Of a stretch of DNA of 64,000 nucleotides, positions 17,001 to 38,084 are shown one piece after another. A program made the translations under genes and the position numbers. The stretch spans positions 550 through 64,549 of the forward strand of contig CAZEMR010000004.1 in assembly GCA_964513465.1 (NCBI GenBank), in the 5' to 3' direction. The notes under the pieces were generated by a model. It saw only the letters and a list, made by a program, of their open reading frames with translations. It was not told where the DNA came from and did no database searches. The stretch's first letter is position 1. Each line of letters starts with the position of its first letter. The stretch is from an uncultured Hyphomicrobiales bacterium (GTDB lineage: Bacteria > Bacteroidota > Ignavibacteria > Kapaibacteriales > UBA2268).

Positions 17001-20000
17001 TCACTCTCTCTTTGAATGCGGGCTCAACCAGTTTGACGTAGGGCTCGGCCGGGACGTATCTGAGATCGTTTCCGTAATGGCGGACAATCGAATTCGTGGT
17101 GGGATAATACCCCACGGCGCGATTATATCCATTTTTGATAAATGATCCGCCATTGAACGAATACGCTGCGGCAAGATTTGCTTTGCTTGAAGTAAGCAGA
17201 CTATCGGTCGAAACCGACTGCGCGCCCTGCACGAACAGAGTCAGATCCGTGGGCTCGGTGCCCGATGCCGACACATTATTCGGCAGTCCGTTCCATAGCC
17301 TTACTTCCCGGATTTCGCCTATGAAATTACCGTTGCCGTTGTCGCTGGTTACTATATTCTGCACCGGCGCCGAAGCTGAACCGTCCTGATTCGATATATT
17401 AACGTCGGTCTCGCTCTGAAGCTGTGTTACATTTGTCAGATTTACATCAATATTCATTGGTGCGGTTTCGTCGAATGCCGCGCTGCCAAGAGCCAGATTC
17501 AGATCGTATGCATAAAGCATAATCGATTGCGGCTGGCTGAGAGACCCATTAGTATTGAACACCAGATTGTCGCTCATCACGCTGACATCGGCCGTATTGC
17601 CGGCGGCGGCATCGAGCGTGAGTCCGGATTGGGGATTAGTCGAATCGGCAATCACAAATGCAAGGTTCTTCGGAGTAGCCGCATCGAAGTCCTGAGCGCC
17701 GATTGCGGTATTAATATCCGAAGCCTCGACTTCAATCCGGAATGGGCTGCTGATCACTCCATTATTAAATGTTATAATATTCTCGCTGATCGTATTCCCG
17801 TCAATATTAATCTGAAGTGTATATTCATCCGGATCGGCATTGCGGGTGAATACCAGCTCGAGGTCGCGCTCATCGTTCTGCATATCCTGAATCGTTCCGT
17901 CGATAGTATATGCATCCCCCTCTGCCGCATTCGCATCGAGCGTACCGGTCAGGCTGACCTGTTCGGTCTGGCGCGCGATATCATTACCGTCAATTGTCTG
18001 GGTAAAATTGTATTCATTTAACTGATCTGTTTTAACAAAACTAAGCTCGAGCGTGTGCTCGTTGCCAGCCGCGTCGTAGATCTGAGCGCTGGTGGTTCGC
18101 TCGAAGTCCTCCGGGGTTCCCGAATATATATTCCCGCTGATTGTAACATTTTGCGTCTGCTGGGGGATGGTATCCCATGTCACCATCGTATAGCCGGGAT
18201 TATATCCGATATAAGTAGGATATTCATTCAGGAAATTGACCGAGAGATCCTCCCCAAGCTGTGTGGCAATGCTGTCCGCCCGCTGCACGGTGCCATCTAT
18301 ATAGAAACGGACTTCCGACTGGCCGAGGCCGCTGTTCAGGAATACATACGCGGCTACATGAGTCCAGGCCGAATCCAGCGATACGGAATTAGGCCGGACA
18401 ATCGGCTGGTCGATATCGCTTGTCGCGGTGCGCTCATTGCCCGTTGCATCCATCAGCTTTAGCTGGAGCTGGCCCGTAGGCAACAGATTGAATTCGTAAT
18501 GAAGCTCATTGGCATTGCTGTCCCTTTTCGCAAGAATCGGGAAATATCCTTCTTCTTCGGTGGGGAACCGGTATGGCCTGATCCATCCCTCGATGAATGC
18601 CACATTGCTGGTTATATTCATGCCTTCTTCGCCGTCTATGGCGAGGATATCGCCTTCTTCTATCGGCAGCGCAAAATACGGCGCCACCCAGAAATCATCG
18701 GATATATATGTAAGGTTGCTCTGAGTAAATGCCGATGTTCCGCGCATCCTCATGCTCACCTCGCGGGCATAAGGATTAATCGTGCGCAGATTGGCAGATG
18801 CATTATTATTTTCGTAGGGCTCCCATTGGGCAGTCCCGGTTTCGACGTCAACCGCAAGCGCGCCGCCAAGCTCCGAGCCTGCGGGATTGCGTGCGTAATT
18901 CCAGCTCGAGCCGCCGTCTATCGAATATTCGATAGCCAGATCGGCTGTCCCGGTGGTCGAAATATCGCCAAGACCGTAGGATACCCAGCGAATATCGAAT
19001 ACTTTGCCATTGATATTTGATACGCCGACTCCGCCGGTGGGTGCCGTCAGCCGGATGTGAGGCTGATCGGGACGATAGGTGGTGGCCAGATCGTCTGCCA
19101 CTCCGCCGCTGTAAAAATCGAGCGCCTGAGCGCCGTTCTGATAAGTCGAATTGCTGGCCTCATCGTCTTTTTCGCCTTCGAATGTATAATATAATTCAAG
19201 GCCGCGCCGAAGATCGCCATATGTCGATACATTCGTCGGATCGGAAACCCCGGCCACCCGGTTGCGGATTTCGTCCTGGGTGAGCGCTGTGCGCCATACC
19301 CGCACTCCTTTGATTCCGGCATGGAGATAATCCGATGCGTCGATCGAACCATTGGGATTGACGCCAATCCATACCGGATGCACGGTGGTCATCATACGGA
19401 TATCGGTAGTGCTGTCGTTAACCCGGCGATCGACCAGCTCGCCATTTACATATAAAGATATTTCATTATTATTAACTGTGGCGGTAAGATGCACCCAATT
19501 GCCCGAGTGATCCTGATCGAGCGGCTCGGCGTCCGATTCGGCCATCAGCGAATCTAGGCGATACGCCACCACCTTGCCGAGGTAGCCGTTTTCGCCGCGG
19601 GCCTGAATTTCGCGGACACGGAAGGCCGGATAGCGGCCGTCCTCCAGATAAAGCATCCAGGCGCCCTCGTTAGAATTATAGACGGGGGCTGCGCCCGGAC
19701 CGCCGCTGGACACCACAATTCCCGGCTCCGATCCATAATCCTGATAGCTGTTCAGGTTGAGCCATGTCTCGACCGTTAACTGAGTGGAATTGCTGAAATT
19801 TGTTTCGGTTTTCAAGTATTCGGAAGTACCGTTGAGCTGCATAAAAAACAGGCGTCCCAAAACGAATTTGGCGTCGTTCATATCAATTACGCTGCTTTTC
19901 TGACGCGAGGTAATCGAAGTATTAGTCGATCCCTGCAGCCTGATAACCCTCAGTCGGGCCTGTTCGCTGCGCTCGGTAAAGAATGGATTTTTCGACCAGA

Positions 20001-25267: not shown

Positions 25268-26221
25268 TTATCTTTCTACTACTTCGAATAATGAGCTTAT
25301 CGAGCGGTTGTCATGGGTGCGGATAATGGCTTCAGCCAATAATTCCGACACAGTGATGGTCTCGATCTTGTTCGAATCTTTTTTCATTGGCAGGGTATCG
25401 GTAACGAATACCCGCTCAATCGCTTCTGAATTTTCGATCATCTCCTGGGCGCGGCCGCTCAGCACCGGATGAACCGTAACGCCGATGATGCGGTTGGCGC
25501 CGGCGTCCTTCAGCGCTTCGGCGCACTTGACAAAAGTGGTGCCTGTATCGATCATATCATCGACTATAACCAGATTGCGGCCCTCGACCGTGCCGATTAT
25601 ATTCATAATCTCGGCGACGTTATGCGAGGGGCGACGCTTATCGACCAGCACCAGGTCGGCATTGAGCCGCTTGGCATACGCGCGTGCGGTCTTTACTCCG
25701 CCGACGTCGGGAGACGCAACTGCGAGGTTGTCCAGCTCCAGTCTTTTCACCGCGCGGATAAGCACCGGCGAGGCATAAAGGTGGTCGAGCGGAATATCGA
25801 AATATCCCTGAATCTGCGACGAATGCAAATCTATCGTAATGATGCGGTCAGCTCCGGCGCGCGCAAGGATATTGGCCACCAGCTTGGCGGTGATAGATAC
25901 ACGCGGCTGGTCTTTGCGATCCTGGCGGGCATAACCGTAATACGGAATCACAGCGGTAACTCTACGGCAGGAAGCACGTTTGGCCGCGTCGAGCATTATT
26001 AATAATTCCATCAGATTGTCCGACGGAGAATGAGTGGACTGAATAATGAAAAGGTCCACTCCGCGAACGTTTTCTTCGAATTTCAACCAGATCTCGCCAT
26101 CGCTGAAATTGCGGATGGCGGTTTCCGAAAGGTGTATTCCAAGATTTTCGGCTACTTTCTGCGCCAGTTTCGGATTCGACCGACCAGTTGCTACCTTGAA
26201 GTCCGGCATCATTATTTTCAT
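25268..26221 (-). CDS. prs: ribose-phosphate pyrophosphokinase
   Basis: 317 aa. 'DGEIWLKFEENVRGVDLFIIQST', 'IPYYGYARQDRK', PRPP-binding loop 'VIVDDMIDTGTT'. Confidence 0.9.
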   Translation of the reverse strand: MKIMMPDFKVATGRSNPKLAQKVAENLGIHLSETAIRNFSDGEIWLKFEENVRGVDLFIIQSTHSPSDNLMELLIMLDAAKRASCRRVTAVIPYYGYARQDRKDQPRVSITAKLVANILARAGADRIITIDLHSSQIQGYFDIPLDHLYASPVLIRAVKRLELDNLAVASPDVGGVKTARAYAKRLNADLVLVDKRRPSHNVAEIMNIIGTVEGRNLVIVDDMIDTGTTFVKCAEALKDAGANRIIGVTVHPVLSGRAQEMIENSEAIERVFVTDTLPMKKDSNKIETITVSELLAEAIIRTHDNRSISSLFEVVER

Positions 26222-26246
26222 TCGTTTCTGCTAAAAATAAAATTCG

Positions 26247-26318
26247 CTGGGATGGCAGGATTCGAACCTGCGAATGTCGGCTCCAAAGGCCGATGCCTTA
26301 CCACTTGGCTACATCCCA
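26247..26318 (-). tRNA. tRNA-Gln (anticodon TTG)
   Basis: Reverse complement folds as a cloverleaf. Acceptor UGGGAUG/CAUCCCA with U1-A72 (bacterial tRNA-Gln hallmark), D-arm GCCAAGUGGUAAGGC, anticodon stem UCGGC/GCCGA with loop CUUUGGA (anticodon UUG), T-arm GCAGG-UUCGAAU-CCUGC. CCA not encoded. Confidence 0.8.
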
Positions 26319-26423
26319 ATGACCGTTTTATCAGAGCTTACAAATATAACAGATATATATTTCTCAAACAAATTATTTCACTTGTTTTTTACGAAAATAT
26401 ATTTAATATATTGAGCTTATGAA

Positions 26424-27104
26424 TTATTTGCGGCGGCAGACCAGGCGGTATACATCTATTCCATGATGTATGCAGAATGTCTCCTTATCAGTCGGCGGCA
26501 GGCCCCATTCCGAGGCATCAACCCGCCGGGTTTCGAAGTCAGCATTGCCCTCCATCAGCTTGCGGTGGTATTCGTCCACTTCCGCTACATCGGTAGCCAG
26601 AAACAGCTCTCCGCCCCGCCGCAATACCCGCGCCGAATCGGTAAGAAATTTATCGGAGAACGCGCGGCGCTTCTGGTGCCGCTTCTTGGGCCAGGGATCG
26701 GGAAAAAGATAGAATATCCGCCCGACCGCTTCATCCGCTATAAAATCCAGCCCATTGACCACGCTGTACCACACAGCCGAGGCGTTGGCGATCGTCTCGC
26801 CGCGGGCGACTTCGTTGATCCAGCGCACCAGCGGACGGCGTATCTCGACTCCGAGCACATTCTCGACGGGATTCGCAAGTGCATACCGCAGCAGAAAGCG
26901 CCCCTTGCCGCAGCCCACATCGAGCGCGTCCGGCGGGCGGCATTCGGCAAAATGCTCGCTCCAGTCTATCGTTTCGATCAGCGGCGGATAATATGAAGGT
27001 TTTTCCTTCAGCTCGCTGGCCGGGAAGTAGAGATTGGGCGCCACATGGTGCCTCACCCGTTTCGGAAACGGATATTTATCGAAATCAATATCTGAGAATT
27101 TCAT
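26424..27104 (-). CDS. trmB: tRNA (guanine46-N7)-methyltransferase
   Basis: 226 aa. SAM-binding 'LDVGCGKGRF' and TrmB signature 'FPDPWPKKRHQKRR'. Confidence 0.85.
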   Translation of the reverse strand: MKFSDIDFDKYPFPKRVRHHVAPNLYFPASELKEKPSYYPPLIETIDWSEHFAECRPPDALDVGCGKGRFLLRYALANPVENVLGVEIRRPLVRWINEVARGETIANASAVWYSVVNGLDFIADEAVGRIFYLFPDPWPKKRHQKRRAFSDKFLTDSARVLRRGGELFLATDVAEVDEYHRKLMEGNADFETRRVDASEWGLPPTDKETFCIHHGIDVYRLVCRRK

Positions 27105-27109
27105 ATATT

Positions 27110-27955
27110 TTAATAGCTGATTGTCAAACCCGGTATTGCGTCATTCAGATCGTTGCGCTCATCGAGCGGCACATCATTGCCCCAAAGCTCCAGATAGCCA
27201 AGATTTCGCATTCGTTTCATCGCATCTGGCAGCTTGGTTAATTTATTTTCGGAAATTTCCAGCGTGTGCATCTGCTGCCACAGCTGGACGCAATCCGGAA
27301 TTTCATTAAGCTGATTTTTCGAAATCGCCAGATGTTCAAGGCCTGTCAGAAGGCATAATTCGCCCGGAAATTCCGTGAATTCATTGGCCATAAGATATAA
27401 TTTGCGAAGATTCGTAAGCTCGGCGAATTCGGTCGGGAGCTCGCTGAGCCGGTTGAAATCGAGATCGAATTCAGTAATATTCTTCAGCAATTTTACCTCG
27501 GCGGGCAACTGCATTATTTGGTTATAGCTCATGCAAATCCCGGTGAGCGAAGGCATGCGCGACATCAAGCGGAATGCGCCGGCCCAGTTCATTGTCGGAT
27601 TTGCAGTAAGATAAATTGTCTCAAGATTCTTTAGTTTTGTTAAATTTTCCGGCAATTCCGTGAGCATATTCCCGACAAGGAACAGCTCCTTCAGATTGGG
27701 CAATTGCGCGAGTTTATCTATCGCATCCCGAAGATCGAGCTCCGGATTATTGCTCAACGCAAGGTTTTCGAGATTTTTGAATTCCTTAATCTTATCCGGC
27801 AATATTTTAATATCCTTCATCGATAGGTCGAGCTTTGCGACCGAATCGGGCTGACCACCGGAGAGCTCTTCCCAGTCGATATTAGGAGCTTCCTGAGATT
27901 TTGCCGTAATGGCAAACACGAAGATCAGCGAAATAATCAGAGCAATTTTTTTCAT
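27110..27955 (-). CDS. secreted leucine-rich-repeat (LRR) protein
   Basis: Signal peptide 'MKKIALIISLIFVFAITAKSQ'. About ten 22-24-aa LxxLxxLxLxxNxLxxLPxxI repeats. Confidence 0.75.
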   Translation of the reverse strand: MKKIALIISLIFVFAITAKSQEAPNIDWEELSGGQPDSVAKLDLSMKDIKILPDKIKEFKNLENLALSNNPELDLRDAIDKLAQLPNLKELFLVGNMLTELPENLTKLKNLETIYLTANPTMNWAGAFRLMSRMPSLTGICMSYNQIMQLPAEVKLLKNITEFDLDFNRLSELPTEFAELTNLRKLYLMANEFTEFPGELCLLTGLEHLAISKNQLNEIPDCVQLWQQMHTLEISENKLTKLPDAMKRMRNLGYLELWGNDVPLDERNDLNDAIPGLTISY

Positions 27956-28035
27956 AATTAATTATATACATTTATTCGCAAAATTATATCATATATTCAA
28001 TCGCCGGGCGGGCCGATTTATTGTTTGGCAATTCA

Positions 28036-28815
28036 TTAAAAAATATATCCGAATAGCGCATCGAGCACAAGTATTGTCGCCGCAGTCAGCGTAAATGCCC
28101 GCACTGTGCTGTTGCCAACCCCTTCGGCGCCGCCCGAGGTGGAATACCCCACATGGCAGCCGATCAGAGCGGTAACCCCGCCGAAGACAAAGGATTTGAC
28201 CAGACCGGTGATTACCTCGCTCAGGCGGAAGAATTTCTGGACCGATTCGAAATAAATCGCACCGCTGAAGTCGAATTTGACCAGTGTCAATAAATAGCCT
28301 CCAAGCAGAGCCACCACGTTCGAAAACACCACCAGCACCGGCATCATCAGAAATGCGGCCACAACGCGCGGCATTCCGAGGAAGCGGTCTTTGTCGATGG
28401 CCATCATCTCGAGGGCGTCTATTTGCTCGCTGACCTTCATTGTGCCGATCTGTGCGGCCATAGCACCGCCGACACGTCCGGCGATCACGAGCGCAGTCAG
28501 CACGGGCGAAAGCTCGGTGAATACAACGGTCGCAATTGATGAGCCGATATATGGCCGGGCGATCGAAACCAGATTGAATTTCGAGAAAAGATTGGTGGCC
28601 TGCAGTGCGGCGATGGCGCCGGTGAACGAGCCGATTAGTATCACCAGCGGCAGAGAATCCGCGCCGATAATGGCCATTTGCTGTATAACAAGCCGGCGGT
28701 CGCGGTATATCCTTGGCAGATAGCGGATTACGTTTTTGAGCATAATCACGATCTGTCCGAATTCCCCAAAGAAATTCATCACGCCGCGTCCTATTCGCGC
28801 AATTACATTAAGCAT
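28036..28815 (-). CDS. mlaE: MlaE/Ttg2B-family ABC transporter permease
   Basis: 259 aa. 'QMAIIGADSLPLVILIGSFTGAIAALQ' and overall MlaE/YrbE topology and length. Confidence 0.85.
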   Translation of the reverse strand: MLNVIARIGRGVMNFFGEFGQIVIMLKNVIRYLPRIYRDRRLVIQQMAIIGADSLPLVILIGSFTGAIAALQATNLFSKFNLVSIARPYIGSSIATVVFTELSPVLTALVIAGRVGGAMAAQIGTMKVSEQIDALEMMAIDKDRFLGMPRVVAAFLMMPVLVVFSNVVALLGGYLLTLVKFDFSGAIYFESVQKFFRLSEVITGLVKSFVFGGVTALIGCHVGYSTSGGAEGVGNSTVRAFTLTAATILVLDALFGYIF

Positions 28816-28991
28816 TTAATTATTGCTTTCTCATTAATTCCGGAAAAACAAAATTAAGCCTTTGCGGGCAATTATGGAAAAAATTTCCCATGAAGCGCAA
28901 TTTTATATATTTTTGTCCTAAGTATCACAGGTTATGAAACATCCGACGCAGTTTGCTGTTATTATTATAATAAAATTTTACGGAATTACAC

Positions 28992-31025
28992 ATGAGAACT
29001 TTATATATATATGTAATTATCGCTGCCATGCTTATACCAGGCATTACTGCATCGGCGGACGAAGAAGTTAAAAAGCGCGCGGTGATGATCGCAGCCGAAG
29101 TCGACAGCAGCGATTCGCCATCTATCACGCTTAGCTGGCCGCAGGATACGGCGGTGAGCTATACGGTATCCCGCAAGGAAGTCACTGGCAGCGATTTCGA
29201 TCATTTCGTCGGAGTGGCCGATAGCGGTGCGACCTCGCTTACGGACAAGGATGTCCGTCGGGGCGTCCATTACGAATATAAAATCATCAAGGCATATCGC
29301 GATTTCGACGGCTGGGGCTATGTCAGCGCGGGGTTCGACGTCGCCCTGCCCGACCACAAAGGGCGCATCCTCGTGTTGGTGGATTACACCGTCCGCGAGC
29401 AAATCCCCGATGCAATCAACCGCTACCAGCGCGGCCTGACGGCCGATGGCTGGCAGGCAAAGGTAGTCAGCGTACCACGCAGCGAGCAGTTCAATCCCCG
29501 CGCGGTAATTAATATCAGGCAGATAATCCGCGCCGAGCACGAACGAGATTCGCTCCGGGCGGTGGTGCTGCTGGGCCGGGTGCCGGTCGCTTATTCCGGT
29601 GATTATGCGATCGACGGCCACAGCGAACACATCGGCGCATGGCCCGCCGACCCATTCTATGCCGAGCTGGACGGAATATGGACGGATTCCTCGGCCGAGG
29701 TACTCGCTACCTCGCGCTACCAGAATATTAATTCGATCGGCGACGGAAAATACGACCAAATATTCATCCCCACAAAGCTGGAGCTCGAAATCGGGCGCAT
29801 CGACTTTTTCGATCTGCCGGACTACCCCCAATCGGAAATTAAATTAATCGAAAATTATCTTGATAAGAATCAAAAATTCCGCTATGGCGAAATCCGACCC
29901 CGCCGCATGGGAATAATCACAGATAATTTCGGGATGTACAGCAACGAGGCTTTCGCCGCAGACGGCTGGATCAACCTTTCGGCGCTGGTGGGCTACGAAA
30001 ACATAAGCGAGGCGTCGATGCGCTACGAAATGCGCGACAAAAGCTTCATGTGGGCGTATGGATGCGGATCGGGCACTTACTACGCCTGCCACGAAGTCGC
30101 TTACCCCGAAACATACGTCGGGGTCGATCAGCACTGCGCGTTTGTAATGCTCTTCGGCTCGCGATTCGGCGACTGGGACAGCCGCAATAATATCATGCGC
30201 ATAATCGCGGCCTCGGCTCCGATGGTGCAGAACGTCGTGTGGGCAGCACGGCCATTCTGGCATTTCCACCAGATGGGAATGGGCGAAACCATCGGCTATT
30301 GCGGCAAAGTAAGCATGAACAACGTAAGAACTTACGAATCATCCGGGCAAGGTGGCCAACACTAGGCGGACATGGCGTGATATGGCTACCACCAGTCGCA
30401 TATGGCGTTGCTGGGCGACCCGACTATGAAGATGTACGTGGCGCCGCCCCCTGGCGAGGTATCCGCTGAGCTAACCGAACCCGGCGACGCCGAGCTTAGC
30501 TGGGCGCACGCTGATGGCGAAATATTCGGATATAATTTATATCGCGCAGCGAATTATGAAGATAAATTCGAGCGGATTAATGCGAATATTATTCACGAAA
30601 ACTCATACGTCGACCGCGCGCCGCTCACCGGACGAAATATTTATCTGGTGCGCAGCGTAAAACGCGAAGAATCGCAGACCGGCTCATTTTTCCATCAGAG
30701 CGCCGGACGATTTGCCGAAATTATATCGGAAACCGATACGGTTGCGGCCAGTGGTCTTGAGATCGAAGTATACCCCAATCCCGCCAGCGAGTCAGTATCG
30801 ATCGAAATTTCGCTGGAATCGGAAAATCATCTGACTATAAATATATACGATCAGAACGGCCGTCGGGTCGCTTCGCCGGTCGATGGAGTTTATCCGGCCG
30901 GCGATCATATCTTCCCATGGGATTTACGCGACGATTCTGGCGAACGGGTCGTACCGGGAGTGTATATCGCATCTGCGGCAGCGGGCGTTTATGTTGCGAC
31001 GATAGAGTTAATTATTTTGCCATAA
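28992..31025 (+). pseudogene. gingipain/C25-like (clan CD) secreted protein with T9SS CTD, interrupted by two in-frame stop codons
   Basis: 28992..30365 has the signal peptide and catalytic-domain homolog ('GRILVLVDYTVREQIPDAINRYQRGL', 'VVLLGRVPVAYSGDYAIDGHSEHIGAWPAD', 'LFGSRFGDWDSRNN'). Same frame continues at 30381..31025 ('MALLGDPT...' plus type-A CTD 'VYPNPASESVSIEI...GVYVATIELIILP'). TAG at 30363-30365 and TGA at 30378-30380 separate the halves. Collinear with the intact paralog 31103..33211. Confidence 0.6.
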
Positions 31026-31102
31026 GTTTTTGAATATTTTGTAATTATTTATAAATTCCGGGAATTTGTGAAATGAATTCATTCACCAATCCCGGAGTTC
31101 TC

Positions 31103-33211
31103 ATGAATAAATTATTTACTCTTTTATTATTACCAATATTTCTTCTTATTTCGAATAATCTTTCCGCGCAGGATGCCCGCGATTTCAGCGTGGGAATCAG
31201 CGCCGAAGTCATCACCGTGCCTTCCGAAATGATAGAGCTGACGCTGACGGCATCCGACAGCGCCACGTATTTTACGATTTACCGAAAAAAAATCGGCACG
31301 ATGTTCTGGGGCAGCCCGATTGCCGAATTCCCGGCAAGCCAGACGGTCTATCAGGATACTGACGTCAGAGCCGGAGATGCTTATGAATACAAAGTATTCG
31401 CACTCTGCGAGTACGTATCGACTATTGGCGGCAATCCGCATGAATTCCATTACGACGCAACCGGTTATATCTGCGTTGGATTCGATTCGCCGCCGGTGGA
31501 GCCCTTCGGCACCGTATTGCTGCTGATCGACGAGACTCTCGAGCTGCCGCTGGCCACCGAAATTGCCCGGCTCGAAAACGACCTTCGTGCCGAATCATGG
31601 GGTGTGGCGACGCATTATGTTGCGCGATGCGAGGAATTTTCGGCGCAGGAAGTACAGAACAATCATGATATAATTGCGGCAGAATATTCGCAAAATCCAA
31701 ACCTGAGCGCAGTGCTGCTGCTCGGGCGGGTTGCGGTGCCCTATTCCGGGAATATCTATCCGGACGGCCATACCAATCACATCGGCGCATGGCCTGCGGA
31801 TGTGTTTTATTCATTCACCGACGACAGCCGCTGGACGGATACTGATGTGATGAACGACACCGCCGCCCGCGCGCAGAACCACAACATCCCGGGCGACGGC
31901 AAGTTCGACCAGTCGATACTCCCCGGCGCTGCGGAGCTTATGGTCGGCCGCATTGATTTTTACGATATGCCGGCATTCGAAGATTCGGAGATCGAGTTAT
32001 TAAGAAAATATCTTGAAAAAGATCATAAATTCCGCACCGGACAAATGGATATCCGCGATATGGGTCTCGTTCAGGATAATTTCCAGCCTCGTAAATTCAG
32101 TTATACGGAATGTTTCGCATCGTCCGGCTGGCGCAATTTCCAGACATTCTTCGGCCCGGAAAACGTCAAAGAGCTCGACTGGCTCGACGAACTATCGACG
32201 CAGTCCTATTTATGCGCATACGGCACCGGCCCGGGCGGCTACTCGAGCTGCGGCGGAATTGTCAACTCCGGCGAGCTGGCCGCCAATCCCACAAACGCCG
32301 TATTCACAATGCTTTTCGGATCCTACTTCGGCGACTGGGACAGCCGCAATAATGTTATGCGCGCGGCGCTTGCATCCGAGCCCTCCGTGCTGACATGCTC
32401 GTGGACTGCGCGGCCGCACTGGTTTCTGCATTTCATGGGGCTGGACTATCCGATCGGCCAATCGACGGTGATTTCGCAAAATAATCTTGCGGAATATGTT
32501 CCATTTGTATTCCGCGTATTTCCCGATCCGCGATTCAGCCCGGGAACAACACGCTCGATTGGCAATGGCTGGGTACACATTGCGCTAATGGGCGATCCCA
32601 CGCTGCGCCTGCATTCGGGCAAAGTCGCCGCGCCGGATAATCTGGCGCTTGCGCAGATCGGTCTGCACTTGTTCGAATTAACATGGGAGAATTCAAATCA
32701 CGACGCGGACACGAAGTATTATATATATCGCGCAACTTCGCCCACCGGCGCTTTCGAACGAATCACCGATGAACCCATCGCTGGGATGACATATCGCGAT
32801 GAATTCGACTACACCGGCGAGCTTTATTATCTCGTGCGACCGGCAAAGCTTACCGCCGCCAACAATGGCCGCTTCTGGATAGAAGGGCCAGGCGTGACGG
32901 CAGACATAATCGCCACCGGAGTCGAGGATATTTCGCTGGAAGCATCTCTTGTAGCAGCGCCCAATCCAGCTTCGACGAATGTGGACATCCGGATAACGCT
33001 CCCTACGGACGGCCATCTGCGCGCGGATATATTCGATCAGCAGGGGCAGGCAATACGCAGCATCGATGCGGGATACGCAATCGCCGGAGAGCACCGCATG
33101 GCGTGGAATCTCCGGGATGAATCGGGCGAGCGGGTAGCAGCGGGAGTATATTTCCTCCGAATCAATACCGGTAAGAAAATATTTTACGAAAAAATCGCGG
33201 TTATGCCTTAA
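31103..33211 (+). CDS. gingipain/C25-like (clan CD caspase-fold) secreted protein, T9SS cargo
   Basis: Signal peptide 'MNKLFTLLLLPIFLLISNNLSAQD'. Segments resembling the peptidase C25 catalytic domain ('GTVLLLIDETLELPLATEIARLENDLRAESW', 'LLLGRVAVPYSGNIYPDGHTNHIGAWPAD', 'LFGSYFGDWDSRNN', 'IALMGDPTLRLH'). FN3-like region. Type-A CTD 'APNPASTNVDIRI...GVYFLRINTGKKIFYEKIAVMP'. Confidence 0.7.
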   Translation: MNKLFTLLLLPIFLLISNNLSAQDARDFSVGISAEVITVPSEMIELTLTASDSATYFTIYRKKIGTMFWGSPIAEFPASQTVYQDTDVRAGDAYEYKVFALCEYVSTIGGNPHEFHYDATGYICVGFDSPPVEPFGTVLLLIDETLELPLATEIARLENDLRAESWGVATHYVARCEEFSAQEVQNNHDIIAAEYSQNPNLSAVLLLGRVAVPYSGNIYPDGHTNHIGAWPADVFYSFTDDSRWTDTDVMNDTAARAQNHNIPGDGKFDQSILPGAAELMVGRIDFYDMPAFEDSEIELLRKYLEKDHKFRTGQMDIRDMGLVQDNFQPRKFSYTECFASSGWRNFQTFFGPENVKELDWLDELSTQSYLCAYGTGPGGYSSCGGIVNSGELAANPTNAVFTMLFGSYFGDWDSRNNVMRAALASEPSVLTCSWTARPHWFLHFMGLDYPIGQSTVISQNNLAEYVPFVFRVFPDPRFSPGTTRSIGNGWVHIALMGDPTLRLHSGKVAAPDNLALAQIGLHLFELTWENSNHDADTKYYIYRATSPTGAFERITDEPIAGMTYRDEFDYTGELYYLVRPAKLTAANNGRFWIEGPGVTADIIATGVEDISLEASLVAAPNPASTNVDIRITLPTDGHLRADIFDQQGQAIRSIDAGYAIAGEHRMAWNLRDESGERVAAGVYFLRINTGKKIFYEKIAVMP

Positions 33212-33403: not shown

Positions 33404-34378
33404 ATGTTCAATTATATACACAGGCTTTATCATCCGGACATATTCCAGGGCAAATCCCAAAACGGCTATTTCGAAGGATGGTATTTCAAGCAGGTAGCAG
33501 CCGACCAATCCCGCGTTGCCGCAGTTATTCCGGGCATTTCGCACTCCGGAGAGTCGCATGCGTTTATTCAGTATATCGACTCCGAAATGGACCGCCCACG
33601 CTACTATTCCTTTCCGCCGGAGCAATTCAGCTATTCCCGCAGGGATTTCCGCGTCAGAATCGGCAGCAGCATTTTCACGCGTGATTACATGACGCTGGAC
33701 ATCTCGCGCGACGACGAAAGCCTGAAGGGCGAGATCGAGTTCCGCAACTTGCGCCCCTACCCGGTTTCGGCGTTGAGCCCGGGGATCATGGGCTGGTACG
33801 CATTTGTGCCATTTATGGAATGCTACCACGGAGTCGTTTCGATGCGCCACACCCTGAGCGGGTGGCTGGATTTTGGCGGGAAAACCACCGACTTCACGGG
33901 CGGCGCCGGGTATATCGAAAAGGACTGGGGCACATCGTTCCCATCGACCTGGATCTGGGCGCAATCGAATAATTTCAGCGACCGTGAGGCCTCGTTCATG
34001 CTGTCGGTTGCCAAAATCCCCTGGCTGGGGAATTACTTCACCGGGCATCTCTGCTTTTTGTGGATTGCCGGGAAATTATATAGATTAATGACATACACCG
34101 GCTCGAAGATCGAGAAAATATCGCTGGATAGCGATTCCATGAATTGCATAATATCCGATAAGCAGCATCGGATAAAAATCACCGCCCGGAACAGCGCCGG
34201 CGGCGAACTCAAAGCGCCGGTCAGCGGGAAAATGGACCGCGTGATTAAGGAAAGCCTCGATGCGGATATACATATAGTCCTCGAGAATAGCGACCGCGAC
34301 GTAATATTCGAGGGTCACGGCCGCGCCGGCGGTTTCGAATTCAGCGGCGACATGGGCGAGCTGATTTCGGGGATATGA
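33404..34378 (+). CDS. tocopherol-cyclase-like (VTE1/SXD1 family) protein
   Basis: 324 aa. N-terminal 'HPDIFQGKSQNGYFEGWYFK' and later 'GGAGYIEKDWGTSFPSTWIWAQSN'. These match my recollection of the plant/cyanobacterial tocopherol cyclase signatures (FFEGWYFK; EKDWG). Confidence 0.55.
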   Translation: MFNYIHRLYHPDIFQGKSQNGYFEGWYFKQVAADQSRVAAVIPGISHSGESHAFIQYIDSEMDRPRYYSFPPEQFSYSRRDFRVRIGSSIFTRDYMTLDISRDDESLKGEIEFRNLRPYPVSALSPGIMGWYAFVPFMECYHGVVSMRHTLSGWLDFGGKTTDFTGGAGYIEKDWGTSFPSTWIWAQSNNFSDREASFMLSVAKIPWLGNYFTGHLCFLWIAGKLYRLMTYTGSKIEKISLDSDSMNCIISDKQHRIKITARNSAGGELKAPVSGKMDRVIKESLDADIHIVLENSDRDVIFEGHGRAGGFEFSGDMGELISGI

Positions 34379-34529: not shown

Positions 34530-37500
34530 CTACGAGCACCCGCTGGTGCCGCCGCAATCCTCGCATACGGTGCAGCTGCCGTTGCGCTTGACCCGCATCG
34601 AGCCGCAGTTCATGCACTGTTCGCCGGTATAGCCGAAGCTGCGCGCGTCGTTGGATGTCGTCACCTTCACCTTTGGCTTATGGCCGTTGCCGTTGACCAC
34701 ACCAGTCGAGAGCGGACTGGCCTGTTCGCCGACTGCCTCGGTCTGCGATGCTGCCGGCGGTTCGGGTTCTTTCGCCGGGGCCGGCTTGCGCTCGGTTTCG
34801 CCGGTGTCCTCCTTATCGCTTTCCTGCGATGGGGGCTCTTCTTTAGTGCCGGATTCCGGAGTATCGTTGTGCTGTTCGTGGCCGTTATCCTCATCGACTG
34901 CCTTGACATGTACGAAGTCCGTACGATTAAGGTAATCATAACCCAGCGAGCGGAATACGTAATCGAGGATCGACGTTGCGTTGCGGATGGCTTCGTGGCC
35001 GGAGACGATGCCCTGCGGCTCGAACCGCGTAAAGGTGAACGTATCGACCAGCTCCTGCAGCGGGATACCGTACTGCAGCGCCTTGGATGCGAGTATTGCA
35101 AAGCTGTTCAGCAATCCGCGGAACGATGCGCCTTCTTTATACATATCGATGAAAATTTCGCCAAGCGAGCCGTCGTCGTATTCGCCTGTGCGGAGGTAAA
35201 CCTTGTGGCCGGATACCATTGCCTCGCGGATATGGCCGTGGCGCTTGCCGGGCAGCTTCGTGCGTTTCGGGCGGCTGACGCGTTCGCTGATTTTCTCCTG
35301 AACTTCGCGGGGACCCTGTGTTTCGTCGAGCGTGTCTTCGTCGCCGAGCGTGACGATTTCGTCGAGGTCTTCGTAGTTCGATGCGCTGAGCGGCTGCGAC
35401 AGCTTGGAGCCCTCGCGGTAGATGGCGATTGCCTTGACCATCATTTTCCATGATTTCATATAAACTTCGCCGATGTCGGTCACCGAGGCCTCGCGGGTCA
35501 TATTGACCGTCTTCGAGATTGCGCCCGAAATAAACGGCTGGGCGGCGGCCATCATCCGCACATGCGCCATGTGGCGGATATAGCGCTCGCCGCGGCGTCC
35601 GCATTTGCTGGCGGTGTCGAATATCGGCAGATGCTCGTCCTTCAGATTGGGCGCACCCTCGATCATCATGGTGCCGCAGACGTAGTCGTTGGCTTTTTCG
35701 ATCTGCTCGTCGGAATAGCCCAATTCTTTAAGTAAATTGAAATTAGGGCTCTGAATACTTTCTTCGGAAAAGCCGATTTTTTTCAGGAAATTCTCGCCGA
35801 GCGCATGTTTATTAAATGCGAATTTAATATCGAATACATCGCCGAGCTGATCCTCGATTTCCTTGATTTTCTCGTCGGTAAATCCTTTTGATTTCAAAGA
35901 TTTTTTGTTAATCTCGGGGCATCCGCGAAGGGTACCGTGCCCGAGGCTGTATTTCTCGATATCCTCGATCTCTTTTTCGGTATAGCCCAGGTGGTTGAGC
36001 GCCTTGCGGACGGAATTATTTACAATTTTGAAATATCCGCCGCCTGCCAGCTTTTTATATTTAACAATAGCGAAATCAGGCTCAATGCCAGTGGTGTCGC
36101 AGTCCATCACCAGACCGATCGTCCCGGTCGGCGCCAGCACCGATACCTGTGCATTGCGGAAGCCATATTCGCCGCCAAGCGTCAGCGCGCGGTCCCAAGA
36201 TTCGCGGGCGGCCTTGAGCAATTGCTCCGGCGCGAGAGATTTATCGATACCCATCGGCTTTATCGTGAGGCCTTCGTATTCCTCGGGGGTCGCGCTGTAT
36301 GCGGCGCGGCGGTGATTGCGGATAACGCGGAGCATCTCCTCCTTATTATCATTGAATTTCGGGAATGCTCCCAATTGCTGCGCCATCTCGGCGGATGCGG
36401 CATACGATTCGCCCGTCAGCAGCGCGGTGATTGCTCCGGCAACTGCCAGCGCCTTTTCGGAATCGTATGGAATTGCGCTTACCATCAATAGCGACCCCAG
36501 ATTGGCGTAGCCAAGGCCCAGCGTCCTGAAATCATAGCTAAGCTGGGCGACCTTCCGCGAGGGGAACTGCGCCATCAGCACTGATATTTCGAGCACTATC
36601 GTCCAGATTCGCACCGCGTGGCGGAAATCGTCGATTTTGAATTCGCCGCTCTCTTCGTCGAGGAATTTCATCAGATTCAGGCTCGCCAGATTGCATGCGG
36701 TGTCGTCGAGGAACATATACTCGCTGCAGGGGTTGCTCGCGTTGATGCGGCCCGACTGCGGGCATGTGTGCCATTCGTTGATCGTTGTGTCGTACTGCAA
36801 TCCCGGGTCGGCGCTCTTCCATGCGCTCATATTGATTTTCTCCCACAGCTCGCGGGCGCGGACTCGCTTGACGGTTTCGCCGGTGGTGCGGGATTTCAGA
36901 TCCCACATCTCGTCGGATTCGACTGCGCGCAGGAAGTCGTTGGTTACGCGCACGGAATTATTCGAATTCTGACCGCTGACCGTCAGGTAGGCCTCGCCTT
37001 CGTAATTCGTATCGAATTCCGAGGAATTAAGCTGGGTATAGCCCTGCTCGACGAGGTTGAGTGTGCGCATTATATAATTAAGCGGCACCCCGCGGTGCAG
37101 AGCCCTTTGGATAAGCTCATTCCGCTTCGGATTGGTTTTGCGATCGGCGCCGTGAGCCAGCGCTTCGTCCACGATAGCCGAGAGGAATTTGGAATTGACC
37201 TTCGAACCGGCCACCAGCGCGGCGACCTTTTCCTCTTCGCGGGCCTTCCACTGGATGAATGCCTCGACGTCGGGGTGATCGATATCGACTATGACCATTT
37301 TTGCTGCACGCCTTGTCGTACCGCCGGATTTGATAGCGCCGGCCGCACGGTCGAAAATTTTCAGAAAGCTCATAAGCCCCGACGAAACGCCTCCCCCCGA
37401 GAGAGTTTCGCCTTCGGCGCGAATATGCGAGAAATTTGTGCCGGTGCCGCTTCCGTATTTGAAGATTCTGGCTTCGCGCAGCGCCAGATCGAATATGCCG

Positions 37501-38084
37501 CCCTCGTTGATCAAGTCGTCGCGGACGGACTGGATGAAGCATGCGTGCGGCTGCGGCCGGGAGTATGCATCCTGCGACTTCTCTACCCTGCCGGTTTCGG
37601 GATTCACATAAAAATGCCCCTGCTTATTGCCGGTGATACCATATATATGATGAAGTCCGGTATTGAACCACTGCGGCGAATTCGGCGCTGCATATTGCGC
37701 AAGCAGAGTGTATGCGATTTCGTCATAAAATATTTTTGCGTCCTCGGGCGAATCGAAATAGCCATGCCGCTCGCCCCACATCCGCCATGTATCGGCCAGG
37801 CGACGCACAACCTGTTTTATTGAATTTTCGGCGCCATATTTTTGTTTGCCGTCTTCTTTGATCGGTTTGCCGTTGTCATCTTTGAGCGGCACTCCTGTTT
37901 TACGGAAATATTTCTGTGCGAGAATATCTGTAGCCATCTGCGACCAATGAGAGGGCACCTCGACGTCGTCCATTTTGAAAACGACCGAGCCGTCGGGATT
38001 ACGCAGCACGGAGGACCTTTTTTTATAATTAAACTGGTCGTAAACATCCGTGCCATCGCGGGTAAATCGTCTTTTAATTTTCAT
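34530..38084 (-). CDS. nrdJ: adenosylcobalamin-dependent (class II) ribonucleotide reductase, long form with C-terminal zinc ribbon
   Basis: 1184 aa. 'MKIKRRFTRDGTDVYDQF...', active-site 'NPCSEYMFLDDTACNLASLNL'. C-terminal 'CMNCGS...CTVCEDCGGTSGCS' CxxC-N-CxxC. No intein blocks detected. Confidence 0.9.
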   Translation of the reverse strand: MKIKRRFTRDGTDVYDQFNYKKRSSVLRNPDGSVVFKMDDVEVPSHWSQMATDILAQKYFRKTGVPLKDDNGKPIKEDGKQKYGAENSIKQVVRRLADTWRMWGERHGYFDSPEDAKIFYDEIAYTLLAQYAAPNSPQWFNTGLHHIYGITGNKQGHFYVNPETGRVEKSQDAYSRPQPHACFIQSVRDDLINEGGIFDLALREARIFKYGSGTGTNFSHIRAEGETLSGGGVSSGLMSFLKIFDRAAGAIKSGGTTRRAAKMVIVDIDHPDVEAFIQWKAREEEKVAALVAGSKVNSKFLSAIVDEALAHGADRKTNPKRNELIQRALHRGVPLNYIMRTLNLVEQGYTQLNSSEFDTNYEGEAYLTVSGQNSNNSVRVTNDFLRAVESDEMWDLKSRTTGETVKRVRARELWEKINMSAWKSADPGLQYDTTINEWHTCPQSGRINASNPCSEYMFLDDTACNLASLNLMKFLDEESGEFKIDDFRHAVRIWTIVLEISVLMAQFPSRKVAQLSYDFRTLGLGYANLGSLLMVSAIPYDSEKALAVAGAITALLTGESYAASAEMAQQLGAFPKFNDNKEEMLRVIRNHRRAAYSATPEEYEGLTIKPMGIDKSLAPEQLLKAARESWDRALTLGGEYGFRNAQVSVLAPTGTIGLVMDCDTTGIEPDFAIVKYKKLAGGGYFKIVNNSVRKALNHLGYTEKEIEDIEKYSLGHGTLRGCPEINKKSLKSKGFTDEKIKEIEDQLGDVFDIKFAFNKHALGENFLKKIGFSEESIQSPNFNLLKELGYSDEQIEKANDYVCGTMMIEGAPNLKDEHLPIFDTASKCGRRGERYIRHMAHVRMMAAAQPFISGAISKTVNMTREASVTDIGEVYMKSWKMMVKAIAIYREGSKLSQPLSASNYEDLDEIVTLGDEDTLDETQGPREVQEKISERVSRPKRTKLPGKRHGHIREAMVSGHKVYLRTGEYDDGSLGEIFIDMYKEGASFRGLLNSFAILASKALQYGIPLQELVDTFTFTRFEPQGIVSGHEAIRNATSILDYVFRSLGYDYLNRTDFVHVKAVDEDNGHEQHNDTPESGTKEEPPSQESDKEDTGETERKPAPAKEPEPPAASQTEAVGEQASPLSTGVVNGNGHKPKVKVTTSNDARSFGYTGEQCMNCGSMRVKRNGSCTVCEDCGGTSGCS

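What the first reader, a model, noticed from the sequence alone, without database searches (positions are those of the whole stretch)
28992..33211. Tandem gingipain/C25-like T9SS cargo genes: one copy split by two in-frame stops, and putative Ser at the expected catalytic Cys position
Two adjacent plus-strand paralogs carry segments I align to the peptidase C25 (gingipain/PorU) catalytic domain (GR-(I/V)L(V/L)L(V/I)D..., VLLLGRV(P/A)VPYSG...DGH(S/T).HIGAWPAD, LFGS(R/Y)FGDWDSRNN, (M/I)AL(L/M)GDPT).
(1) The upstream copy is interrupted by TAG (30363-30365) and TGA (30378-30380) in the same frame, only 12 nt apart. The catalytic domain plus signal peptide is separated from the FN3+CTD tail. That makes it a pseudogene or a split gene whose C-terminal fragment can no longer be exported.
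(2) In both copies the residue I align to the gingipain nucleophile Cys (gingipain 'FDVACVNGDF') is Ser ('LFGSRFGDW', 'LFGSYFGDW'). That would make them either serine-variant clan-CD enzymes or catalytically dead binding proteins. The alignment is from memory and needs confirmation.
Basis: partly seen in the sequence, partly recalled or inferred. Interest (0 to 1): 0.55.

Follow-up and report, generated by a model that had tools for sequence, protein, structure and literature searches.

The report
Gingipain-like secreted gene pair, one broken
Two neighbouring genes encode secreted surface proteins from a large unstudied family distantly related to the gingipain proteases but lacking their catalytic Cys-His pair, and one gene is broken in this assembly by a 30-base insertion that a near-identical sister genome lacks.

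Summary
Copy 1 (28992-31025) is one reading frame interrupted by TAG (30363-65) and TGA (30378-80). Copy 2 (31073-33211, 712 aa) is intact.

Both stops lie in a single 30-nt insertion (30351-30380). It is an imperfect copy (20-21/30) of the next 30 nt. A sister MAG contig differs at only 7 of 6,667 positions, lacks the insertion and encodes an intact 667-aa protein. The lesion is therefore specific to this strain or assembly: a very recent pseudogene or a local assembly error. Reads are needed to decide.

The tandem pair is ancient (36% identity) and is conserved in two other genomes.

The core domain belongs to a large unnamed family (2,456 clusters at 50% identity). It is a remote relative of peptidase C25. 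Some members pass Pfam's threshold, but only over the N-terminal subdomain. hhalign gives E 6e-5 to 9e-8. Foldseek did not confirm the fold.

The best profile alignment puts an invariant Ser (354/354 domains) at gingipain Cys244. It puts Gly/Pro/Ser, never His, at His211. The canonical dyad is absent under every register tried.

These are not cysteine peptidases. Whether they are Ser-based enzymes or binding proteins is untested.

The parts
28992..31025 (+). Copy 1: whole interrupted gene. Layout is signal peptide, FN3-like domain, C25-like core, FN3, T9SS CTD. Without the 30-nt insertion it would encode 667 aa.
   Evidence: Single-frame translation. It matches the intact P0230 (667 aa) of the sister MAG apart from 2 residue changes and the 10 inserted codons.
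28992..30365 (+). N-terminal fragment ORF (457 aa). It holds the signal peptide, the FN3-like domain and most of the core. It lacks the invariant His and the GDP strand, the FN3 and the CTD.
   Evidence: The NCBI-derived protein P0121 is identical.
30351..30380 (+). 30-nt insertion GGTGGCCAACACTAGGCGGACATGGCGTGA (GGQH*ADMA*). It contains TAG 30363-65 and TGA 30378-80. The boundary is ambiguous by 1 nt (30350/30351).
   Evidence: It is the only indel against L001 across 6,667 nt. It is unique in the window. It is absent from P0230 and P0122.
30381..30410 (+). The adjacent 30 nt (YGYHQSHMAL) that the insertion imperfectly duplicates.
   Evidence: Identity is 20-21/30. This is the best non-self match of the insertion among all 30-mers of the window on both strands. 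The repeat finder family D1: 26 nt, 77%, spacing 30.
30402..31025 (+). C-terminal fragment ORF (207 aa). It holds the last core strand (ALLGDPT), the FN3 and the T9SS CTD. It has no signal peptide and starts at an internal Met.
   Evidence: P0231 is identical.
30159..30161 (+). Copy 1 Ser390 codon (TCG) in LFGSRFGDW.
   Evidence: The column is invariant.
31073..33211 (+). Copy 2: intact 712-aa paralog. The true start is probably Met11, at 31103.
   Evidence: AF2 model pLDDT 93.7. Met11 is where homologs start.
31493..32608 (+). Copy 2 C25-like two-subdomain core (residues about 141-512).
   Evidence: hhalign against a C25 alignment. Domain model pLDDT 92.5.
32321..32323 (+). Copy 2 Ser417 codon (TCC) in LFGSYFGDW. 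It aligns with RgpB Cys244 in the best alignment.
32216..32236 (+). Copy 2 AYGTGPG (residues 382-388). Pro387 aligns with RgpB His211. Thr385 is the position that is Cys in 86% of the family.
31763..31801 (+). Copy 2 DGHTNHIGAWPAD. This family-specific segment carries invariant D231, H233, H236, W240 and D243. The copy 1 equivalent is at 29613-29651.
32945..33208 (+). Copy 2 T9SS type A C-terminal sorting domain. The copy 1 CTD is at about 30771-31022.
   Evidence: TIGR04183 at 32 and 29.6 bits (cut-off 23); PF18962 and PF13860.

Best explanation
These are two anciently duplicated, co-oriented genes for surface or secreted proteins in a Candidatus Kapaibacterium-like genome.

Export route. Each protein is made with a Sec signal peptide. 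It crosses the outer membrane through the type IX secretion system by means of its C-terminal type A sorting domain. It displays an FN3-like domain, a roughly 370-residue two-lobed alpha/beta core and a second FN3 domain.

The core. It belongs to a very large unnamed family that is a remote sister of the gingipain/PorU (peptidase C25) catalytic domain. The family has lost the Cys-His dyad. The strand-end position of the nucleophile Cys holds an invariant Ser. The His position holds Gly, Pro or Ser. A family-specific set of invariant polar residues has appeared: D231, H233, H236, D243, K277, R293, D421, R430 and H502. I infer that the family is not a cysteine peptidase. It works either as a hydrolase with a re-invented, possibly Ser417-centred, site or as a non-catalytic binding module.

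The break in copy 1. In this assembly copy 1 is disrupted by one 30-nt imperfect tandem duplication in a variable surface loop, just upstream of the invariant His and the final GDP strand. That insertion brings in both stop codons. If it exists in the cells, copy 1 is a very recent pseudogene. The 457-aa product would reach the periplasm without a CTD and without the last core strand. The 207-aa tail would have no signal peptide.
For: Insertion and sister genome (shown):
- L001 (GCA_046542925.1, JBKHAK010000167.1) aligns to window 25457-32153 with 7 SNPs and one 30-nt insertion.
- P0230 (667 aa) and the 56%-identical ortholog P0122 both read SSGQYGYHQSHMALLGDPT.
- The insertion's best match anywhere in the window is the adjacent 30 nt.

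Tandem pair conserved (shown): L002 and L003 each carry a 677-679-aa gene followed by a 711-716-aa gene. Copy 1 and copy 2 are 36% identical.

T9SS cargo (shown): CTD models are above cut-off.

Family size (shown): 2,456 clusters at E<=1e-3 and 1,491 at E<=1e-30. Sources name them only 'T9SS type A sorting domain-containing protein' or 'hypothetical'.

C25 relationship:
- PF01364 hits are above the 23-bit threshold in P0131 (41 bits), P0125 (30.7), P0033 (28.6), P0185, P0128 and P0062. All cover profile positions about 2-130 of 374.
- hhalign of the family against a C25 alignment gives E 6.7e-5. The domain-only global run gives probability 92% and E 9e-8.
- The GDP(T/S) strand motif maps uniquely, with z of 6.3 and 4.6.

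Dyad absent:
- In the best alignment H211 pairs with position 387 and C244 with S417.
- Position 387 is never His, S417 is 100% Ser, and position 385 is Cys in only 86% and 64% of the two sets and is Thr in copy 2.

Inferred, not shown: the Sec signal peptide (read by eye), the enzyme-versus-binder question, and the tolerance of the loop to insertion (low pLDDT blocks 35-36; a length-variable region).
Against: - Foldseek of the domain-only model against the PDB found nothing significant. The best hit had E 0.018, to periplasmic binding proteins, and no gingipain or PorU appeared in the top 50. The PorU top hit for the full-length model can be explained by its CTD and Ig domains.
- Neither window protein reaches Pfam's C25 threshold.
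- The B-subdomain alignment that carries the Ser/Cys equivalence is weak when taken alone (E 1.4e-3, probability 17%).
- Short local HMM hits and an ungapped scan put RgpB Cys244 on Cys385 instead.
- The insertion is only 67-77% identical to its template while the genomes differ by 0.1%. No simple mutational process explains that, and it could point to an assembly or consensus artefact.
- No activity, localisation or expression data exist.
Confidence: 0.62

Rival explanations
1. The two stops are an artefact of assembly, consensus or polishing. The organism carries an intact copy 1 like its sister strain.
For: - The insertion is a noisy (67-77%) copy of the adjacent 30 nt, while the surrounding 6.6 kb differs from the sister MAG at only 7 positions. 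A fresh biological duplication should be perfect.
- The only other genome carrying this allele is intact.
- The record is a MAG contig.
Against: - The rest of the window shows no sign of indel-type errors. ORFs of 2111, 1466, 2321, 1184 and 1260 aa are uninterrupted.
- If the contig came from a de Bruijn short-read assembler, every k-mer must occur in reads, so a 30-nt novel string would be real (inference; the assembly method is unknown).
- The same split products are in the public NCBI-derived protein set.
Confidence: 0.42
2. The family are genuine cysteine peptidases whose nucleophile is the Cys of AYGCGSG (copy 1 Cys358; position 385 in copy 2 numbering). The invariant Ser then belongs to the next strand, corresponding to the gingipain STINQSW motif.
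For: - 32 of 41 weak local HMM hits, and the ungapped RgpB Cys-segment scan, place Cys244 on position 385.
- Position 385 is Cys in 86% of 230 sequences.
- G388 could match the invariant G247, and W422 the invariant W284.
Against: - Those hits score only 2-4 bits and are driven by the Cys-Cys term.
- Position 385 is Thr in copy 2 and Thr/Ala/Asp/Asn/Ser in 14-36% of members.
- No conserved His lies in the 60 residues upstream.
- hhalign's best and second-best alignments are other registers.
- This register needs one beta-alpha unit missing upstream and one extra downstream. The Ser417 register instead gives matching strand-to-strand spacings (family strands; RgpB strand positions are from my own knowledge).
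Confidence: 0.1
3. The core is not homologous to C25. It is an unrelated Rossmann-like alpha/beta domain, and the shared motifs are convergent.
For: - The Foldseek domain-only search gives only insignificant hits to periplasmic binding and LacI-type proteins.
- Pfam hits are confined to the first third of the profile.
- hhalign probabilities are only 64-92%.
Against: - Six family members exceed the curated C25 threshold.
- The similarities are collinear across the whole domain: VLLxG, (S/A)D..Y, GR, the helix with HxY(E)R, the two strand-end glycine-rich motifs, (W/F)LRA and LxGDP(S/T).
- The GDP motif of PorU is also found by the family profile in the PDB search.
- The biological setting is the same: T9SS cargo with FN3/Ig domains and a CTD.
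Confidence: 0.13
4. The interruption is functional, through programmed read-through or bypassing, or through a two-polypeptide split gene.
For: The insertion is in frame (30 nt), and an ATG follows 21 nt after the second stop.
Against: - Two different stop codons lie 12 nt apart.
- The layout is not conserved. The sister strain, the ortholog and 228 relatives are uninterrupted.
- The downstream ATG is an internal Met codon of the conserved SHMALLGDPT.
- The tail would lack a signal peptide and the head would lack the CTD.
Confidence: 0.02

Closest known systems
Peptidase family C25 (gingipains RgpB and Kgp; MEROPS clan CD; Pfam PF01364)
   Same: - Both have a two-subdomain alpha/beta core.
- The motifs are collinear: VLLxG, xD..Y, GR, strand-end Gly-rich motifs, (W/F)LRA and the terminal LxGDP(S/T) strand.
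- Both are followed by an Ig/FN3-type domain and a T9SS CTD.
- Some relatives pass the Pfam threshold.
   Different: - There is no Cys-His dyad. Ser is invariant at Cys244, and Gly/Pro/Ser stands at His211.
- There is no C25 propeptide (PF08126); an FN3-like domain takes its place.
- Subdomain A carries a large family-specific insertion with the DGHxxHxGAWPAD and NIPGDGKFD motifs.
- The window proteins score below the Pfam threshold.
- Foldseek did not retrieve gingipains.
PorU, the T9SS C-terminal signal peptidase/sortase (PDB 6ZA2; NCBIfam NF033707)
   Same: - PorU is a C25-type core carried by a protein that itself has a T9SS CTD.
- It is the top Foldseek hit for the full-length model (E 1.4e-9).
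- Its LMGDPSVRM closely resembles the family's LMGDPTLRM.
- By eye, PorU's TCDFANYDS resembles the family's GSYFGDWDS.
   Different: - PorU is about 1,150 aa and has a His/Cys dyad in the ...NYAGHGG... and ...TATCDF... segments (sequence seen).
- NF033707 scores are 29.8 and 23.5 against a cut-off of 420, and cover only the CTD.
- The domain-only model does not retrieve PorU.
Pseudo-orthocaspases (clan CD, family C14) with Tyr-Ser in place of His-Cys (PMC6426788)
   Same: This is a natural clan-CD lineage in which the nucleophile Cys is replaced by Ser and the His is also replaced. The replacements are conserved across many genomes, and the proteins are presumed not to be proteolytic.
   Different: It is a different family (caspase p20 domain) in cytoplasmic cyanobacterial proteins. 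The family here is secreted, much larger, and carries many additional invariant polar residues.

Membership tests
Peptidase C25 (PF01364) | Sequence score at or above Pfam's gathering threshold (23 bits) | tested here: not met
   Copy 1 N-fragment scores 13.5 bits and copy 2 has no hit. The intact allele P0230 scores 19.5 bits. Relatives P0131 (41), P0125 (30.7) and P0033 (28.6) pass, but only over profile positions 2-130 of 374.
Peptidase C25 (PF01364) | Catalytic His (RgpB His211, GHG motif) | tested here: not met
   The best hhalign alignment puts His211 on position 387, which is Pro in copy 2 and Ser in copy 1. It is never His in 230 plus 124 domains. No conserved His lies anywhere in residues 320-500 of the B subdomain.
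Peptidase C25 (PF01364) | Nucleophile Cys (RgpB Cys244, A-C motif after a hydrophobic strand) | tested here: not met
   The best alignment puts Cys244 on the invariant Ser417. The alternative register uses position 385, which is Cys in copy 1 but Thr in copy 2 and is not conserved.
Peptidase C25 (PF01364) | Profile-profile homology to a C25 alignment | tested here: met
   hhalign gives E 6.7e-5 and probability 64%. The domain-only global run gives E 9.1e-8 and probability 92%. The B subdomain alone gives E 1.4e-3 and probability 17%.
Peptidase C25 (PF01364) | Gingipain/caspase-hemoglobinase fold shown by structure comparison | tested here: inconclusive
Peptidase C25 (PF01364) | N-terminal C25 propeptide (PF08126), as in gingipains | tested here: not met
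   There is no PF08126 hit. The N-terminal region matches FN3-like domains.
T9SS type A cargo | C-terminal sorting domain (TIGR04183 / PF18962) | tested here: met
   TIGR04183 scores 29.6 bits (copy 1 tail) and 32 bits (copy 2) against a cut-off of 23. PF18962 scores 30.1 bits for the copy 1 tail.
T9SS type A cargo | N-terminal Sec signal peptide | not tested
   Read by eye only: MRTLYIYVIIAAMLIPGITASA|DEE in copy 1 and MNKLFTLLLLPIFLLISNNLSAQ in copy 2. No predictor was available.
T9SS type A cargo | T9SS machinery present in the same genome | not tested
   Other CTD-bearing giant proteins occur in the window, but no Por/Gld/Spr component was looked for.
PorU sortase (NF033707) | Score at or above the equivalog cut-off (420 bits) over the whole protein | tested here: not met
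   Scores are 29.8 and 23.5 bits, over the CTD only.

The most novel reading that the evidence does not exclude
The family would be a previously unrecognised class of secreted enzymes built on the gingipain/clan-CD scaffold. The thiol dyad would have been replaced by a new catalytic apparatus centred on the invariant Ser417, served by one of the family-specific invariant His residues (H233, H236 or H502) and an Asp (D421 or D231). As far as I know, that would make it the first serine-nucleophile lineage on this fold. The family comprises at least 2,456 sequence clusters at 50% identity. It is named in Ignavibacteria, Kapabacteria, Bacteroidota and Verrucomicrobia, and is fused to T9SS CTDs, dockerins, autotransporter repeats and Ig arrays.
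Probability: 0.25. Interest if true: 0.7.

Novelty: new variant of a known kind. Interest (0 to 1): 0.38.

Why it matters
The broken gene matters only for annotation. It should be flagged as a disrupted copy, or as a possible assembly error, of a gene that is intact in a sister strain. It is not a split gene.

The family is the more useful result. Thousands of secreted proteins are currently labelled only 'T9SS type A sorting domain-containing protein'. They share a strongly conserved core with about 20 invariant polar residues. That core is distantly related to gingipains and PorU but cannot work as a cysteine peptidase.

If the invariant Ser is catalytic, this would show a Cys-to-Ser nucleophile switch with relocation of the general base on the clan-CD scaffold. 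It would also define a new activity on the surface of environmental Bacteroidota-group bacteria. If the family is inactive, it is a large case of a protease scaffold recycled as a binding module. Either way, the family deserves its own profile and should not be transitively annotated as 'C25 cysteine peptidase'.

Tried and rejected
- Foldseek against the PDB with the full-length model was dominated by FN3/Ig/CTD matches. With the domain-only model it gave nothing significant.
- Exact look-ups of the window's own proteins, and of P0121, found no contig.
- One pattern matching both the interrupted and the intact junction found no further genomes in genome contigs or metagenome contigs. Only one independent comparison genome exists.
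- The family profile against PDB sequences matched only FN3, CTD and FlgD-like parts, plus a 2-bit GDP-motif stretch in PorU.
- A family HMM against single RgpB, Kgp and PorU sequences was insignificant.
- Short-segment ungapped scans were ambiguous for the Cys and His strands and clear only for the GDP strand.
- Tandem Repeats Finder did not report the 30-nt repeat because it is too diverged.
- I searched for another template for the insertion on either strand, in the paralog and in L001-L003, and found none. Origins by template switching, gene conversion or a DGR were therefore dropped.
- Read-through or bypassing was rejected because the layout is not conserved.
- Literature searches found no description of this family.

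Full report
**1. The observation**

Translating window 28992-31028 in one frame gives a continuous protein except for two stops...NNVRTYESSGQGGQH*ADMA*YGYHQSHMALLGDPT... TAG is at 30363-30365 and TGA at 30378-30380, in the same frame with 12 nt between them. The ORF finder lists three ORFs on the plus strand: 28992..30365 (457 aa), 30402..31025 (207 aa, beginning MALLGDPT) and 31073..33211 (712 aa).

**2. What caused the stops**

A search with the read-through translation of copy 1 found a 90%-identity cluster of three proteins. Two are the fragments themselves, P0121 (457 aa) and P0231 (207 aa), both from one 90,006-bp NCBI contig. The third is an uninterrupted 667-aa protein, P0230 (MFP4529323.1, MAG: Candidatus Kapaibacterium sp.).

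The contig encoding P0230 is L001 (GCA_046542925.1, JBKHAK010000167.1, 6,667 bp). It is syntenic with the window: PRPP synthetase, Methyltransf_4, LRR protein, MlaE, copy 1 and the start of copy 2. It aligns to window 25457-32153 with 7 substitutions and a single indel, a 30-nt insertion in the window at 30351-30380 (boundary ambiguous by 1 nt).

The inserted string is GGTGGCCAACACTAGGCGGACATGGCGTGA. It encodes GGQH*ADMA* and contains both stops. P0230 and the 56%-identical ortholog P0122 both read SSGQ|YGYHQSHMALLGDPT with nothing in between.

The insertion is unique in the window. Among all 30-mers on both strands, its best match is the immediately following 30 nt, TATGGCTACCACCAGTCGCATATGGCGTTG (YGYHQSHMAL), at 20-21/30 identity. 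The repeat finder reports the same pair as a 26-nt direct repeat, 77% identical, with spacing 30. No other template was found in the window, in the paralog or in L001-L003.

The two stops are therefore one event: an in-frame, imperfect tandem duplication of ten codons. The ATG of the downstream ORF is the internal Met of the conserved SHMALLGDPT, not a start codon.

**3. Is the lesion real or an artefact?**

This cannot be settled without reads. The arguments point in opposite directions.

- For an artefact: a fresh slippage duplication should be perfect. Here 9-10 of 30 bases differ, while the two genomes differ at 0.1% elsewhere.
- For a real lesion: the window is otherwise free of indel-type damage, with uninterrupted ORFs of 2111, 1466, 2321, 1184 and 1260 aa. 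In a k-mer-based short-read assembly, a 30-nt novel string must have come from reads. That is inference, because the assembly method is unknown.

I put a real lesion at about 55% and an artefact at about 42%.

Either way the interruption is specific to this strain or assembly. It is absent from the sister strain, from the ortholog and from the other family members aligned. A pattern matching both junction forms found no further genomes.

The 457-aa product keeps the signal peptide but lacks the invariant His, the terminal GDP strand, the FN3 and the CTD. The tail has no signal peptide.

The insertion lies in a loop that varies in length across the family and has low model confidence (blocks 35-36). 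Ten extra residues without stops might have been tolerated there.

**4. The gene pair**

Copy 1 and copy 2 are only 36% identical, so the duplication is old. Each has its own closest relatives. Copy 1-type proteins are about 664-691 aa and copy 2-type proteins about 700-730 aa.

Two unrelated metagenomic loci carry the same ordered pair. L002 has a 679-aa gene then a 711-aa gene, with the same MlaE, Methyltransf_4 and PRPP-synthetase genes upstream. L003 has a 677-aa gene then a 716-aa gene in a different neighbourhood. Both paralogs have thus been kept side by side over long evolutionary distances. This argues that copy 1 is normally functional.

**5. Architecture**

- Both proteins end in a T9SS type A sorting domain. 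TIGR04183 scores 29.6 and 32 bits against a cut-off of 23, and PF18962 and PF13860 also hit.
- The AlphaFold2 model of copy 2 is confident, with mean pLDDT 93.7 and pTM 0.90.
- By domain, the model shows a beta-sandwich at residues about 40-140. This region matches Fn3-like proteins by profile. Next come an alpha/beta core (about 141-512), a second FN3 (about 515-610) and the CTD (about 625-712).
- The N-termini look like Sec signal peptides. This was judged by eye only.

**6. The family**

The core alone (386 aa) finds 2,456 clusters at 50% identity with E<=1e-3, and 1,491 with E<=1e-30. Sources name these proteins only 'hypothetical' or 'T9SS type A sorting domain-containing protein'. The named organisms are Ignavibacteria, Kapabacteria/Kapaibacteriota, Chlorobi, Bacteroidota and, for one, Verrucomicrobia.

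The same core is also found fused to dockerins, Big/PKD/cadherin-like arrays and autotransporter PATR repeats. It occurs three times in a 3,383-aa protein that has a WbsX/GH99-like N-terminal domain. No Pfam or NCBIfam model covers the core, apart from marginal Peptidase_C25 hits.

Conservation is striking. The following are invariant in 230 sequences: G218, H233, H236, W240, D243, D256, N271, D275, K277, D279, R293, D295, S417, D421, R430, P448, G507 and D508. The key positions stay essentially invariant in 125 further domains from independent clusters.

**7. Relationship to peptidase C25**

*Sequence to profile.* The window proteins do not reach Pfam's threshold (13.5 bits and no hit). Six relatives do: P0131 at 41 bits (E 1.8e-10), P0125 at 30.7, P0033 at 28.6, P0185 at 27.1, P0128 at 24.4 and P0062 at 23.9. 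Every hit covers only profile positions about 2-130 of 374, which is gingipain subdomain A.

His211 and Cys244 are at the expected positions. A C25 alignment was built from its database homologs.

| hhalign comparison | Result |
|---|---|
| Family residues 131-312 vs RgpB 1-137 | E 6.7e-5, probability 64% |
| Domain-only profiles, global mode, whole domain | E 9.1e-8, probability 92% |

The matches are collinear along the domain:

| Family motif | RgpB counterpart |
|---|---|
| VLLLGRV | VLLVGDH |
| AWPADxYY | IKSDQVYG |
| VGRxDF | IGRFS |
| AYGCGGG | NYTGHGS |
| FTMLFGSYFGDW | FIFDVACVNGDF |
| NxLRA | EALMRA |
| ALMGDPTL | TVFGDPSL |

The GDP strand maps uniquely in an ungapped scan (z of 6.3 for PorU and 4.6 for RgpB). 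The family profile also finds it in PorU in the PDB search.

My reading is that remote homology to C25 is likely (about 0.8) but not structurally confirmed. The window proteins are not members of PF01364 by its own criterion.

**8. The catalytic residues**

In the best alignments, both for the whole domain and for the B subdomain alone (E 1.4e-3), Cys244 falls on Ser417 (copy 1 Ser390). His211 falls on position 387, which is Pro in copy 2, Ser in copy 1 and Gly in the consensus.

The second-best hhalign alignment (E 0.086) is shifted one beta-alpha unit the other way.

A third register puts Cys244 on Cys385 of AYGCG. It is preferred by 32 of 41 very weak (2-4 bit) local HMM hits and by the ungapped RgpB Cys-segment scan. 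Those scores are driven by the Cys-Cys term. The RgpB His segment scans best to the same strand, at position 387, and both cannot be right.

The spacing of strands in the model fits the Ser417 register. The family strand starts are 328, 365, 379, 409 and 441, with the GDP motif at 508. The RgpB strand starts are about 144, 178, 203, 236 and 271, with the GDP motif at 340; these come from my own knowledge of 1CVR and were not verified with a tool here. Under the Ser417 register, strands correspond one to one with similar spacings. The Cys385 register needs a missing unit upstream and an extra one downstream.

I put Ser417 equivalent to Cys244 at about 0.65.

One conclusion does not depend on the register: the canonical dyad is absent. 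Position 387 is never His. There is no conserved His anywhere between residues 320 and 500. Position 385 is Cys in only 86% of one set and 64% of the other, and it is Thr in copy 2.

**9. How it most likely works**

- Shown: the domain composition, the T9SS sorting signal, the loss of the dyad, the invariant Ser, and a set of invariant polar residues placed mainly just after beta-strands in both subdomains.
- Inferred: the proteins are exported by Sec and T9SS and displayed on, or released from, the cell surface. The conserved residues line a cleft at the C-terminal edge of the sheets, where alpha/beta enzymes and gingipains have their active sites.

About twenty invariant polar residues across more than 2,000 clusters is more than a passive scaffold usually keeps. 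I therefore lean slightly towards an enzyme with a rebuilt site: Ser417 with a family-specific His and Asp, possibly with metal or Ca2+ bound by the DGHxxH and NIPGDGKFD segments. The alternative is a dead binding module. Neither has been tested.

There is a precedent for a conserved Ser at the nucleophile position combined with a replaced His within clan CD: the pseudo-orthocaspases, which carry Tyr-Ser for His-Cys and are presumed inactive (PMC6426788).

**10. Verdict**

The broken copy is an ordinary, strain-level lesion or an assembly error. Its only odd feature is the imperfect duplication.

The more interesting result is the family. It is large, unnamed, remotely C25-like and lacks the dyad, with an invariant Ser where the gingipain Cys would be. 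That makes it a new variant of a known kind, of moderate interest, with a clear experimental path.

Noticed in passing
window 30351-30410: The 30-nt insertion is only 67-77% identical to the adjacent 30 nt that it copies, while the two genomes differ at 7 of 6,667 other positions. Neither plain replication slippage nor a plain sequencing error explains such a noisy tandem duplicate.
   Followed up: partly
window 2779-9117 (-), 9178-13581 (-), 14056-21024 (-): Three giant adjacent genes of 2111, 1466 and 2321 aa. The first and third carry Laminin_G_3/ConA-like domains and T9SS sorting domains, and the third also has a FlgE_D2-like segment. This looks like a cluster of very large T9SS surface proteins.
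   Followed up: partly
window 27110-27955 (-): A 281-aa leucine-rich-repeat protein lies between the MlaE and Methyltransf_4 genes, here and in the sister MAG. In locus L002 those two genes are adjacent, so the LRR gene is a lineage-specific insertion next to the gene pair.
   Followed up: no
window 33404-34378 (+): A 324-aa protein matches the tocopherol cyclase family (PF14249, E 1.7e-21). This is unexpected in a non-photosynthetic Kapaibacterium-like genome.
   Followed up: no
window 34530-38084 (-): An 1184-aa ORF reads like a class II (B12-dependent) ribonucleotide reductase. It has a long low-complexity acidic/Pro-rich linker and a C-terminal Cys-rich tail (CMNCGS...CTVCEDCGGTSGC). This was judged by eye only.
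   Followed up: no
proteins P0262, P0286, P0348, P0145/P0155/P0157 (database relatives): The same dyad-less core occurs three times in a 3,383-aa protein with a WbsX/GH99-like domain. It is also fused to dockerins, autotransporter PATR repeats and long Ig/PKD arrays. It is therefore a mobile extracellular module and is not tied to T9SS.
   Followed up: partly
window 30954-31022 (copy 1 C-terminus): The last strands of the copy 1 CTD (GVYIASAAAGVYVATIELIILP) are unusually Ala/Val-rich. They also lack the Lys seen in the ortholog (AKLIILP) and in the family consensus. The Pfam CTD match stops at profile position 34 of 75. The sister allele has the same sequence.
   Followed up: no
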